This document shows positions 27,463-29,151 of a stretch of 64,000 bases of DNA, one piece after another. The notes under the pieces are model-generated. The model was given only the letters and a program-made list of their open reading frames with translations. It was not told the origin of the DNA and made no database searches. This DNA is from Yuukianura sp. NJ FZ-2021 (Eukaryota), in contig CM102285.1 of NCBI GenBank assembly GCA_046563655.1, positions 9,858,001 through 9,922,000 on the forward strand, read 5' to 3'. How positions within the stretch are numbered: position 1 is the first letter of the stretch; each line of letters starts with the position of its first letter. The position numbers and the translations under genes were made by a program.

Positions 27463-29151
27463 TTAATCCCGTTCCAATTCAACGTACTCCAGAAGCGAAG
27501 CGATTTCGCGAGCCAGCTTTTCCGAAGCAGCGCAAACTACGCGCCGACTCAGCAGATCAAACGGGCCTCCTGGAATTTCAAATCAATCGGTTAGCAATTT
27601 GAATGTCAGAAGGTTGCTAAGCAATGCTTAGTTTTAGTTAGGTTAGGTTAAGCATGGAAATGGAACTGTTCAAGTTACCAGTGATGTCAATGACACTGCC
27701 GCCAGCTTCCTTGACAATCATTTCCCCGGCACACATGTCCCAAGCATGAACTCCTTGCTCGTAGTAAGCATCAACTGCACCAGAAGCAACAGACGCCATG
27801 TTAAGAGCAGCAGATCCAAGGGCTCTTATACTAAACACACAAATAACAGAACATTAAACACCGAAAAGCAATTTAAAACCCCGAAGTTCCTATGCGCCCG
27901 TGACAGTTCCATTTCCATGCACTCGGAATTCCTTAAGCGTTTAGTTTGTAAAGTGCCCAAGAATTTAAAAACATGCTTAAGGTGCGGTATACCTCCGTAG
28001 TCCAGGAAAGCTCCACCAGCTTCCTTAATAATTACGAGCTTCAAAAATAATAAAACACATAAAAACATAATTACAATTACAATAATTTAGGCTTTTCGAA
28101 ACAAGGAAAACCGAAATTCGGAACACACCGCTGCAGCAGTGTCCCACATATGAAGACCAAAATGGCAAAATGCATCGGCTCCACCACTGGCTATCATTCC
28201 ATAAGCACAAGTTGCTGATCCGAACAGTCGAACGCTAACGATGGGTGTTAATTAAACTTTCACTGGTTAATTGAGTGCATGGAAATGGAATAGTTTGAAT
28301 GGTTTTTGATTAAGAGACAGTTACCCGTGAACTTTGCCAATCAATTTTGTTAGATTGTTCAAAACAACCTTGACACGTTCTGGATCTTTGCTGGAACCCG
28401 CTTCAGAACAAACCAAAGCCTTAGCCAATTCTGGAATGATAAAAGAAAGTTAGAGAAAGTCTTCAAAAATATAAATTTTATAAAATCTTTTGAAATTTCC
28501 AAATTCGACTGAAATGACCATTGCCCTTACCAGTTTCTCCAGAGACTTTGATTGGTTTTCCATTTAGAAACGCTCCATGTCCAATTTTGGCAGTAAACAG
28601 TTGATCCAGCAGTGGATTGTAGATGATTCCAAGCACAGATTCTTTTTTAATAAGGAGTCCAATAGAAATGGCCACCAATGGCAACCCATGGACAAAGTTC
28701 ATGGTGCCATCCACGGGGTCAATGACCCACGTCGGGTCATCGGTCAGTTCACACGGTTGACCTTCCACGGCAGACTCCTCTCCGATAAACCTAAAAGCAA
28801 ATTTTGAATGTTCAATACGCCAGTTAAATTTTGTGTTGTTGAGCTGCACTGGAGAAAGTGGTGAAAGTACTTGTGCGTCGGAAAATGCTCCTTGAGTCCA
28901 CCAATTAACAATTTCTCCACCTCTCGATCTGTTTCAGTGACTAAATCGATATCACATGTTTTGGATTCCACGTTCTTTGCTTTCATTATTGCTGCACCGA
29001 TGATCTACCAAAAGAAAAGAGTTGGCTGAAATTTGAACTGACAATGCAAATTTGACAGTGAAAGTAAATTTAAACTTACTTGACCGCATTCTTTAGTTAG
29101 TCTGATTGCGGTTACGAAATATTTTTGAAGAAGTTCTGATTCAATTGACAT
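27463..29151 (-). CDS. IMPA1: Inositol monophosphatase (IMPA1/2 family), 276 aa, two predicted isoforms
   Basis: Constitutive exons 29151-29080, 29004-28871, 28790-28531, 28430-28325 and last exon 27569-27463, plus either module A (28234-28129 + 28038-27993) or exon B (27830-27679). The CDS is 831 nt either way. Motifs: DLVTETD, FIGEE, WVIDPVDGTMNFVHG, GSA, WD..A...I.KEAGG. Confidence 0.96.
27652..27669 (-). promoter_or_regulatory. Downstream intronic pairing element (intron after IMPase exon B)
   Basis: Plus strand gcatggaaatggaactgt; 18/18 complementary to 27903-27920. It starts at intron position 10 after the exon B donor. Confidence 0.78.
27679..27830 (-). CDS. IMPase alternative exon B (single 152-nt exon, canonical-like sequence)
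   Basis: tttag|T ATA AGA...ACT G|gtaac; encodes IRALGSAALNMASVASGAVDAYYEQGVHAWDMCAGEMIVKEAGGSVIDIT. Same length and phases as module A. Confidence 0.93.
27903..27924 (-). promoter_or_regulatory. Central intronic RNA-pairing element between IMPase module A and exon B
   Basis: Plus strand acagttccatttccatgcactc. 27907-27924 is the exact reverse complement of 28273-28290, and 27903-27920 is the exact reverse complement of 27652-27669. Confidence 0.8.
27993..28234 (-). CDS. IMPase alternative module A (two exons, 106+46 nt)
   Basis: 28234-28129 encodes VRLFGSATCAYGMIASGGADAFCHFGLHMWDTAAA and 28038-27993 encodes LVIIKEAGGAFLDYG. They are separated by a 90-nt GT..AG intron with an in-frame TAA. 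Entry phase 2 and exit phase 1 match the flanking exons, and the module aligns without gaps to exon B. Confidence 0.85.
28273..28290 (-). promoter_or_regulatory. Upstream intronic pairing element (intron before IMPase module A)
   Basis: Plus strand gagtgcatggaaatggaa; 18/18 complementary to 27907-27924. Confidence 0.78.

What the first reader, a model, noticed from the sequence alone, without database searches (positions are those of the whole stretch)
27679..28234. Asymmetric mutually exclusive cassette: two exons (106+46 nt) versus one exon (152 nt)
Seen in sequence: the same 50-codon IMPase segment is encoded twice in tandem with identical total length (152 nt), identical phases (2 in, 1 out) and a gap-free alignment. 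Copy A is split by a 90-nt intron; copy B is not. Because 152 is not a multiple of 3, including both or neither shifts the frame. Inference: an internal duplication was followed by intron gain in A or loss in B, giving a mutually exclusive unit of two exons that must be co-included. That is unusual, since most such clusters swap single exons. Automated annotation could easily miss module A, and the supplied ORF track shows only its second exon in frame.
Basis: partly seen in the sequence, partly recalled or inferred. Interest (0 to 1): 0.8.

Follow-up and report, generated by a model that had tools for sequence, protein, structure and literature searches.

The report
Springtail IMPase alternative exons with RNA switch
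A springtail inositol monophosphatase gene carries two alternative versions of one 50-codon segment, one of them split by a small intron, and three matching intron sequences look like an RNA switch that lets only one version into each mRNA.

Summary
A minus-strand IMPase gene (8 exons, introns 75-162 nt) encodes Pfam PF00459 positions about 190-239 twice. Module A is 106+46 nt split by a 90-nt GT-AG intron. Module B is 152 nt. Phases are identical, and every combination other than A-only or B-only shifts the frame.

Module A is not a dead copy:
- Its dN/dS against a related genomic contig is 0.14, versus 0.12 for B, with synonymous sites saturated.
- A-type modules of eight springtail sequences form a clade (99/99 support).
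- Folsomia candida RefSeq isoforms X2 and X1, and two unnamed JGI proteins, differ only by A versus B.

New here: an intronic element between A and B is 18/18 complementary both to an element upstream of A and to one downstream of B (-33.1 and -32.6 kcal/mol). The same three elements occur in the relative, with two compensatory pair changes. This fits competing loop-out of A or B, like the bidirectional pairing described for Drosophila srp.

A second relative has module A unsplit, so the intron is probably a recent gain. All A modules replace the residue aligned to human Glu213 by His.

No RNA data exist for this species, so its splicing remains inferred.

The parts
29080..29151 (-). Exon 1 of the IMPase gene (start codon 29151-29149), phase 0 at its end
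   Evidence: Sequence reading. The spliced translation aligns from the N-terminus with springtail IMPases.
28871..29004 (-). Exon 2 (134 nt)
   Evidence: GT-AG borders, continuous alignment with relatives.
28531..28790 (-). Exon 3 (260 nt). It holds the DPxDGT metal-binding motif.
   Evidence: Pfam PF00459 E 1.3e-33. 82% identical to P0002 and 80% to Allacma fusca P0003.
28325..28430 (-). Exon 4 (106 nt). This is the constant exon upstream of the cassette and ends after 2 bases of a Gly codon.
   Evidence: 30 of 34 aa identical to L001.
28273..28290 (-). Element U (upstream selector), in the intron between exon 4 and A1. It lies 34 nt after the exon 4 donor and is 18/18 complementary to M.
   Evidence: Inverted repeat I2. 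Duplex -33.1 kcal/mol. A counterpart is present in L001.
28129..28234 (-). Module A, first exon (A1, 106 nt, 35 whole codons). It carries the His at the position aligned to human Glu213 and the conserved Trp-Asp.
   Evidence: Pfam positions 189-224. Omega 0.14 for A1+A2 against L001.
28039..28128 (-). 90-nt GT-AG intron inside module A. It falls between the codons aligned to human residues 224 and 225.
   Evidence: L001 has a 90-nt intron at the same place with unrelated sequence (33 of 90 ungapped). L003 has none. No other copy in the window.
27993..28038 (-). Module A, second exon (A2, 46 nt)
27903..27924 (-). Element M (central docking site), in the 162-nt intron between A2 and B. Bases 27907-27924 pair with U and bases 27903-27920 pair with D, so the two pairings share 14 nt and cannot coexist.
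   Evidence: Inverted repeats I1 and I2. In the window-L001 alignment M is an 18-nt block of identity in an otherwise poorly alignable intron.
27679..27830 (-). Module B (single 152-nt exon), the canonical IMPase version with Glu at the position aligned to human 213
   Evidence: Pfam positions 190-239, E 9e-18. Omega 0.12 against L001.
27652..27669 (-). Element D (downstream selector), in the intron after B. It starts 10 nt after the B donor and is 18/18 complementary to M.
   Evidence: Inverted repeat I1. Duplex -32.6 kcal/mol. The L001 counterpart shows two compensatory pair changes.
27463..27569 (-). Coding part of the last exon (stop codon 27465-27463)
   Evidence: 28 of 34 aa identical to L001.

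Best explanation
This is a genuine alternative cassette in a springtail (Collembola) inositol monophosphatase gene, conserved across springtails. One mRNA takes either module A (two exons, 106+46 nt) or module B (one exon, 152 nt).

Proposed mechanism (inferred): a 22-nt intronic docking element M lies between A and B and can pair with only one partner at a time. Pairing with U, upstream of A, loops out A1, the A intron and A2 together. It brings the exon 4 donor to within about 110 unpaired nt of the B acceptor, giving isoform B. Pairing with D, just downstream of B, loops out B. It brings the A2 donor to within about 154 unpaired nt of the last acceptor, giving isoform A. These bridged distances fall in the range of the gene's ordinary introns (75-162 nt).

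Because the loop-out acts on everything between U and M, the 90-nt intron inside A can be removed constitutively. It does not disturb the choice, which would explain how a two-exon unit can alternate with a one-exon unit. Frame incompatibility (152 is not a multiple of 3) disables any mis-spliced product.

The duplication predates the divergence of the springtail lineages sampled. The intron in A is most likely a later gain in the lineage of the window and L001.

At the protein level, the swap replaces the active-site residue aligned to human Glu213 by His and keeps the metal ligand Asp220. The two isoforms are therefore probably enzymes with different substrate or cation behaviour.

Status of each step:
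- Shown: anatomy, conservation, selection, complementarity, and isoform pairs in relatives.
- Inferred: splicing in this species, the causal role of the pairings, and the biochemical difference.
For: Anatomy and frame
- Exon borders, phases and frame consequences.
- Both modules map to the same Pfam PF00459 positions.

Selection
- Module A: omega 0.143 against L001 (dS 1.23) and 0.18 against L003.
- Module B: omega 0.121 against L001.

Relatives
- The closest proteins are springtail IMPases.
- F. candida X2 (A-type) and X1 (B-type) have 0 differences outside the module and 21 of 50 inside it.
- JGI P0002 (A) and P0125 (B) have 1 difference outside the module. P0125 is encoded uninterrupted at L002 116-931, with no A module on that contig.
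- In a tree of 110 modules, the 8 springtail A modules form a clade with 99/99 support. B modules group with other arthropods.

RNA elements
- There are two perfect 18-nt inverted repeats that share the central arm.
- The 14-nt core occurs exactly 3 times in 64 kb, all in this gene.
- The longest complementary run is 18, against maxima of 12 and 11 in 1000 shuffles each.
- Duplex energies are -33.1 and -32.6 kcal/mol.
- The minimum-energy fold of the 755-nt stretch forms U-M.
- L001 has U, M and D in the same three introns, with energies of -27.5 and -30.2.
- M is an identity island in an otherwise diverged intron.
- The M-D extension shows two double compensatory changes, and U-M shows one A-U to G.U change.
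- Cognate M-D duplexes (-32.6, -30.2) are more stable than cross-species ones (-23.3, -27.7).

Literature and residue mapping
- The srp model (upstream-to-middle and middle-to-downstream pairings that select one of two exons) comes from passages of PMC4691838 and the Discussion of PMC6071210.
- Residue mapping to human IMPA1 comes from the alignment to 1ima.
- Asp220 as Mg-II ligand, and Glu213 beside the metal sites, come from passages of PMC4954947.
Against: - There is no transcript evidence from this species. No RNA run was listed and no genome is held.
- The RNA model rests on only two genomic sequences with all three elements. L003 ends before M.
- In L001 both helices are imperfect. M-D has one internal mismatch. 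U-M is 15 contiguous pairs including one G.U.
- U-M shows no energetic covariation: cognate -33.1 and -27.5, cross-species -27.7 and -28.7.
- The 755-nt region as a whole is not unusually stable (z -1.70; 1 of 20 shuffles folds as well).
- The A1 acceptor has a poor pyrimidine tract, so A may be a minor form.
- Word-based protein searches with A1, and with the A module of P0002, found nothing beyond P0002 and Allacma.
- The claim of a biochemical difference rests on one aligned residue and on recalled structural literature.
Confidence: 0.7

Rival explanations
1. The two modules are real alternatives, but exclusivity is enforced by other means: frame incompatibility with decay of wrong products, splice-site competition, or protein factors. 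On this view the complementary elements are incidental, or only tune the A:B ratio.
For: - Any wrong combination shifts the frame.
- Passages of PMC5740500 report that most conserved human clusters have incompatible frames.
- U-M shows no energetic covariation between species.
- The whole-region fold is not exceptional.
Against: - Two perfect 18-nt complements to one shared element, inside a 1-kb stretch, are far beyond chance.
- They persist across a divergence at which synonymous sites are saturated.
- M-D shows compensatory changes.
- With introns of 75-162 nt, default splicing would join every exon, so some device against double inclusion is needed.
Confidence: 0.17
2. In this species module A is an unused or decaying duplicate, and only B is spliced in.
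For: - No RNA evidence for A in this species.
- Weak pyrimidine tract at the A1 acceptor.
- No database protein matched A1 in the word-based search.
Against: - The frame is open across both A exons, with four canonical splice sites.
- Omega is 0.14-0.18 with saturated dS.
- All A-type signature residues are kept.
- The A-specific intron and its splice sites are conserved in L001.
- A-type isoforms are recorded in relatives.
Confidence: 0.06
3. The three complementary elements are leftovers of a mobile element or of the duplication itself, for example terminal inverted repeats, and have no role in splicing.
For: - U and D are direct repeats of a 14-nt core.
- The Discussion of PMC6071210 proposes that tandem duplication can create such repeats.
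Against: - The core occurs nowhere else in 64 kb.
- U lies upstream of A while D lies downstream of B, so they are not at equivalent positions of the two duplicated units.
- Neutral leftovers would not survive a divergence with dS above 1 while the surrounding introns are scrambled.
Confidence: 0.04
4. A and B are both constitutive, giving a longer protein, as in the deposited fused models of Allacma, Orchesella cincta and the older Folsomia model.
For: Three deposited models contain both modules.
Against: - In this window joint inclusion gives a stop two codons into B.
- The fused models need extra non-homologous residues or an internal acceptor to keep the frame.
- A protein with this segment twice has no counterpart among the other proteins examined.
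Confidence: 0.01

Closest known systems
Drosophila serpent (srp) exons 4.1/4.2: bidirectional RNA pairing model (Yue et al. 2016, PMC4691838, passages read; summarised in the Discussion of PMC6071210)
   Same: - Two alternative units lie between constant exons.
- One pairing joins the upstream intron to the middle intron and selects the downstream alternative.
- The other pairing joins the middle intron to the downstream intron and selects the upstream alternative.
- Splice sites are brought together and the in-loop exon is skipped.
   Different: - In srp the two pairings use two separate pairs of elements and exclude each other only through a pseudoknot. Here both pairings use the same 14-nt core of one central element, so the competition is direct.
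- One alternative here is a two-exon unit.
- Function here is not tested.
Human ATE1 exons 7a/7b (Kalinina et al., PMC7797038, abstract and passages read)
   Same: A central intronic element (R3) between the two exons is complementary to two similar elements (R1, R4) that compete for it. In minigenes, disrupting and then restoring the pairs abolishes and restores exclusivity.
   Different: - In ATE1 both competitors lie immediately upstream of the two exons and overlap their 3' splice sites, so they act by hindrance. Here the second competitor lies downstream of B, and neither overlaps a splice site.
- ATE1 also has a 30-kb R2-R5 helix.
Vertebrate GNAO exon pairs 7.1-8.1 versus 7.2-8.2 (PMC5896119, passages read)
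   Same: The mutually exclusive unit consists of more than one exon, and those exons must be taken together.
   Different: In GNAO both alternatives are two-exon units made by duplicating an exon pair. Here a single exon was duplicated, and only one copy is split (2 exons versus 1).
Folsomia candida RefSeq IMPase isoforms X1 (XP_021957606.1) and X2 (XP_035702966.1)
   Same: They are orthologous modules of the same gene. X1 carries the B-type module and X2 the A-type, and they are identical elsewhere.
   Different: They exist only as database models. I found no description in print. Their exon structure and introns could not be read with these tools.
Branchiostoma lanceolatum IMPA1-like isoforms X1/X2 (P0022/P0014)
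   Same: The two isoforms differ only within the same segment, and the residue aligned to Glu213 changes (to Gln).
   Different: It is an independent duplication: the amphioxus variants fall outside the springtail A clade. Gene structure was not seen.

Membership tests
Mutually exclusive exon cluster made by tandem exon duplication | Neighbouring homologous coding units in one gene | tested here: met
   A1+A2 against B: 80 of 152 nt and 23 of 52 aa, with no gap. Both map to Pfam PF00459 positions about 190-239.
Mutually exclusive exon cluster made by tandem exon duplication | Same length and same phases, each unit with its own canonical splice sites | tested here: met
   106+46 = 152 nt against 152 nt. 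Phase is 2 in and 1 out for both. All borders are GT-AG.
Mutually exclusive exon cluster made by tandem exon duplication | Mature mRNAs carry exactly one of the units | tested here: inconclusive
   - This species: no RNA run was listed.
- Relatives: the isoform pairs F. candida X1/X2 and JGI P0125/P0002 differ only in the module.
- L002 is an intron-free contig with B only.
Mutually exclusive exon cluster made by tandem exon duplication | Joint inclusion or joint skipping is non-productive | tested here: met
   All six other combinations run into stop codons.
Competing RNA pairing control of exon choice (docking site and selectors; bidirectional pairing) | One intronic element is complementary to two or more others, with overlapping footprints | tested here: met
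   M pairs 18/18 with U and 18/18 with D, sharing 14 nt. Energies are -33.1 and -32.6 kcal/mol. Shuffles never exceed a run of 12.
Competing RNA pairing control of exon choice (docking site and selectors; bidirectional pairing) | Elements and pairing conserved between species, with compensatory changes | tested here: met
   L001 has all three elements in the same introns. M-D shows two double compensatory changes and U-M one wobble-preserving change. Only two species could be compared.
Competing RNA pairing control of exon choice (docking site and selectors; bidirectional pairing) | Disrupting a pairing changes exon choice and restoring it rescues | not testable with these tools
   Needs minigene or genome-editing experiments.
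Inositol monophosphatase family (Pfam PF00459) | Significant match to the family profile over the whole protein | tested here: met
   - Exon 3: E 1.3e-33.
- Module B: E 9e-18.
- A1: E 6e-8, 32.9 bits against a cut-off of 27.
- The relative P0122 matches human IMPA1 (1ima) at E 2e-79.
Inositol monophosphatase family (Pfam PF00459) | Metal-binding residues present (DPxDGT motif; Asp aligned to human Asp220) | tested here: met
   The motif is in exon 3, and Trp-Asp is present in both modules. The role of Asp220 is taken from passages of PMC4954947.
Inositol monophosphatase family (Pfam PF00459) | Glu aligned to human Glu213 in the substrate pocket | tested here: not met
   Module B has Glu. Module A has His, as do all 8 springtail A modules. 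Isoform A is therefore a family member by fold and metal site, but with an altered pocket residue. Enzyme activity was not tested.

The most novel reading that the evidence does not exclude
A minimal three-element RNA switch (one docking site flanked by two equally strong selectors) chooses between two versions of an enzyme's active-site segment. It has done so since early in springtail evolution. Because the switch loops out whatever lies between its arms, it allowed one alternative to acquire a new intron and become a two-exon unit without losing exclusivity. Isoform A, with His in place of the substrate-pocket Glu, would be a phosphatase with a different substrate or cation response, made from the same gene.
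Probability: 0.4. Interest if true: 0.6.

Novelty: new variant of a known kind. Interest (0 to 1): 0.5.

Why it matters
- Size. The whole switch, with both alternatives and the flanking splice sites, fits in about 760 nt. The two helices are perfect and of nearly equal strength. That would make it a very small natural system for testing how competing RNA pairings enforce one-of-two exon choice where introns are short.
- The split module. It is a natural experiment: it suggests that loop-out control works on multi-exon units. It also shows why length-matching predictors and gene callers mishandle such loci. Three deposited springtail models fuse the two modules.
- Enzymology. It points to a conserved IMPase isoform with an altered pocket residue. 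A parallel, independent alternation of the same segment occurs in amphioxus.

Tried and rejected
- RNA evidence: the look-up of sequencing runs listed no RNA holder, so read laying could not be used. None was listed; that is not the same as none existing.
- Own genome: none is held for this window.
- Protein search with A1: with 5 intron-coded residues added to reach the minimum length, and searching longer proteins, there were 5 candidates and none scored.
- Protein search with the A module of P0002: this returned only P0002 and Allacma P0003, 2 of 9 candidates. The word index is too coarse for a 50-aa segment, so the taxonomic breadth of A-type modules stays open.
- Whole-intron duplex folding: this gave sprawling structures with many large loops whose energies overlapped the shuffles. 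I dropped it in favour of element-level duplexes and longest-run statistics.
- Second complement: a stretch just 3' of U is complementary to the B donor (13 of 15, I3). It is marginal in the window (1% of 500 shuffles as good) and not reproduced in L001 (22%). I treat it as probable chance.
- Rfam: only a sub-threshold snoZ6 match appeared (17.8 bits against 35, E 0.48). I treat it as chance.
- Introner-like origin of the A intron: no second copy exists in the window.
- Earlier notes of this scan: nothing on this genome or topic.
- Related loci: of the 80 metagenome loci, only L001-L006 were examined. The others matched at 62% identity or less and were not looked at.
- Literature on one split alternative versus an unsplit one: searches returned nothing on such a case. 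I judged this from titles, abstracts and passages of PMC2257972, PMC5896119 and PMC5740500. Supplements were not read.
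Full report
**What is in the sequence**

The gene runs on the minus strand from about 29151 to 27463. It has eight exons and GT-AG introns of 75, 80, 100, 90, 90, 162 and 109 nt.

The spliced translation is a 276-residue inositol monophosphatase. Exon 3 alone matches Pfam PF00459 at E 1.3e-33. There is no second IMPase copy in the 64-kb window.

After exon 4, which ends at 28325 with two bases of a Gly codon, the same 50-codon segment is encoded twice:
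- Module A is A1 (28234..28129, 106 nt), a 90-nt intron, and A2 (28038..27993, 46 nt).
- Module B is 27830..27679 (152 nt).

The alignment between A and B has no gap: 80 of 152 nt, and 23 of 52 aa counting the two split Gly codons. B matches Pfam profile positions 190-239 and A1 matches 189-224.

A-only and B-only both read through to the same C-terminus. Both modules together, neither, A1 alone, A2 alone, A1+B and A2+B all hit stop codons.

**Module A is not a dead copy**

The best relatives of exon 3 are springtail proteins. They are an unnamed JGI protein P0002 (82%), Allacma fusca (80%), Orchesella dallaii and Folsomia candida. The search gave 1022 proteins at E<=0.001 among 1405 candidates, and the best 120 were listed.

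Scoring these against both modules showed three with an A-like segment and one, Allacma, with both.

The cluster look-up then gave matched pairs:
- F. candida isoform X2 (A-type) and X1 (B-type) have no difference outside the module and 21 of 50 differences inside it.
- JGI P0002 (A-type) and P0125 (B-type) have one difference outside the module.
- P0125 is encoded without interruption at L002 116-931, and that contig holds no A module. It therefore looks like a spliced B-only mRNA.

A scan of metagenome contigs with exon 3 returned two genomic relatives, L001 (85% in exon 3) and L003 (77%). Only 6 of the 80 returned loci were examined.

Nei-Gojobori estimates against L001 give omega 0.143 for A (dS 1.23) and 0.121 for B (dS 1.02). 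A against L003 gives 0.18.

In a tree of 110 module sequences, the eight springtail A modules form a clade (99/99) on a long stem. B modules sit among other arthropods (50 columns only, so many other forks are unresolved).

A is thus an old, selected, springtail-wide alternative. What is missing is RNA from this species. No RNA run was listed and no genome is held.

**Three complementary intron elements**

The repeat search found two perfect 18-nt inverted repeats that share one arm:
- M (27903-27924) lies in the intron between A2 and B.
- M pairs with U (28273-28290), in the intron upstream of A1.
- M pairs with D (27652-27669), which starts 10 nt after the B donor.

The two footprints on M overlap by 14 nt, so only one pairing can exist at a time.

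Evidence that this is not chance:
- The 14-nt core occurs exactly three times in the 64-kb window, all here. Seven matches are found at up to two mismatches, against 0.85 expected, and 0 of 100 shuffles reached seven.
- The longest complementary run between the introns is 18. The maxima in 1000 shuffles each were 12 and 11.
- The duplex energies are nearly equal, -33.1 (U-M) and -32.6 (M-D) kcal/mol.
- The minimum-energy fold of the 755-nt stretch forms U-M. The stretch as a whole is not unusually stable, however (z -1.70; 1 of 20 shuffles as good).

**Conservation of the elements**

L001 has the same architecture: A1 of 106 nt, a 90-nt intron, A2 of 46 nt, and B of 152 nt. It also has U, M and D in the same three introns.

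In the pairwise alignment, M is an 18-nt block of identity in an intron that otherwise hardly aligns. This holds even though synonymous sites are saturated between the two species.

Listing the pairs base by base shows the following:
- The M-D extension has two double compensatory changes (C-G to U-A, and A-U to U-A).
- L001 has extra pairs that offset one internal mismatch.
- U-M has one A-U to G.U change.

Cognate M-D duplexes (-32.6, -30.2) beat the cross-species ones (-23.3, -27.7). U-M shows no such difference (-33.1, -27.5 against -27.7, -28.7).

L003 has a U-like sequence near 723-735, but the contig ends before M. The comparative support is therefore real but rests on two species.

**How it most likely works (inferred)**

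All introns here are short. Left alone, the spliceosome would probably join every exon and produce the frame-shifted A+B product.

- U-M pairing encloses A1, its intron and A2 in a loop. It leaves about 34+76 unpaired nt between the exon 4 donor and the B acceptor.
- M-D pairing encloses B. It leaves about 72+82 nt between the A2 donor and the last acceptor.

Both bridged distances resemble the gene's normal introns. This is the logic described for Drosophila srp, where an upstream-to-middle pairing selects the second exon and a middle-to-downstream pairing selects the first. That logic works by bringing splice sites together and by in-loop skipping (passages of PMC4691838; Discussion of PMC6071210).

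Here the two pairings compete for the same nucleotides rather than through a pseudoknot. Direct competition for a central element is known from human ATE1, but there both competitors sit at the 3' splice sites (PMC7797038, abstract and passages).

Because the loop-out acts on the whole interval between U and M, the intron inside A needs no special control. That would explain how a two-exon unit can alternate with a single exon.

**History of the intron**

In the module tree the window and L001 are sisters (95/80), with L003 next (98/80). The window and L001 have the intron. L003 has module A as a single 152-nt exon (872-1023). B is unsplit in both species where it was seen.

One gain in the common ancestor of the window and L001 is the most economical reading. 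A loss in the L003 lineage cannot be excluded without the loci of Allacma, Folsomia and Orchesella, which these tools do not hold.

The intron sequences of the window and L001 are unrelated (33 of 90 ungapped). The intron has no other copy in the window.

**Protein consequence**

Aligned to human IMPA1 (1ima), the module covers residues 190-239.

- Both modules keep Trp219-Asp220. Asp220 is a ligand of Mg-II (passages of PMC4954947).
- All eight springtail A modules have His where B and 94 of the 108 matched motif instances (in the 130 proteins on hand) have Glu213.
- A modules also differ consistently at the positions aligned to 199, 211-212 and 238 (listing).

That Glu213 contacts the inositol ring is recalled from the crystallographic literature and was not read here. 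The passages read place it beside the metal sites. I infer an isoform with altered substrate or cation behaviour. This is untested.

**Comparison and novelty**

Mutually exclusive exons from tandem duplication, and their control by competing RNA pairings, are established. Multi-exon exclusive units are also known: the GNAO exon pairs 7/8 (passages of PMC5896119).

The A/B isoforms of the Folsomia orthologue are already in RefSeq. I found no paper describing alternative splicing of IMPase of this kind, in springtails or elsewhere:
- The search for 'mutually exclusive' + 'inositol monophosphatase' + 'exons' found 5 papers, 4 of them listed.
- The search for 'Collembola' + 'alternative splicing' + 'mutually exclusive' found 6 papers, 5 of them listed.
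- None was on this topic, judged by title and abstract.

I also found no described case of one split and one unsplit alternative.

The predictor described in PMC5740500 looks for candidate exons of similar length in neighbouring introns (passages). It would probably not find a split copy.

The new points are the three-element switch with a shared central site, its conservation, the 2-versus-1 exon asymmetry with a probably recent intron, and the His-for-Glu swap. I rate this a new variant of a known kind, of moderate interest.

Noticed in passing
P0014 and P0022 (Branchiostoma lanceolatum IMPA1-like isoforms X2 and X1): The two amphioxus isoforms (284 aa each) are identical except within residues 200-248. 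This is the same segment as the springtail module, with Gln in place of the Glu aligned to human 213 in X2. In the module tree they lie outside the springtail A clade, so the alternation of this exon seems to have arisen independently.
   Followed up: partly
P0003 (Allacma fusca, 337 aa), P0123 (Orchesella cincta, 349 aa), P0121 (Folsomia candida OXA61374.1, 317 aa): These deposited gene models contain both A and B modules in one protein. The modules are joined by non-homologous residues or by an internal acceptor in B. They look like mis-annotations of the same alternative cassette.
   Followed up: partly
window 28260-28274 and 27670-27684 (minus strand): The 15 nt just 3' of element U are 13/15 complementary to the end of B plus its donor site. 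This is marginal against shuffles in the window (1% as good) and not reproduced in L001 (22%). It is probably chance, but it could mask the B donor.
   Followed up: yes
P0040, P0044, P0130 (unnamed JGI/Logan proteins, 275 aa): These IMPases of unknown origin also have His at the position aligned to Glu213, with a 'WDTAAA'-like stretch resembling the window's module A. They fall outside the springtail A clade in the tree. Their taxon is unknown.
   Followed up: no
L003 about 723-735: A U-like sequence sits in the intron upstream of the unsplit A module of this relative. It shares the first 10 nt of the core, then diverges. The contig ends before the expected position of M, so its pairing could not be checked.
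   Followed up: partly
P0124 (77 aa, unnamed JGI protein on a 1516-nt contig): This fragment starts at a Met inside a B-type module and runs into the last exon without interruption. It may come from a transcript whose upstream part is out of frame (double inclusion or a retained intron).
   Followed up: no
window 27697-27788 (minus strand): A sub-threshold Rfam match to snoZ6 lies inside exon B (17.8 bits against a gathering score of 35, E 0.48). I regard it as chance.
   Followed up: yes
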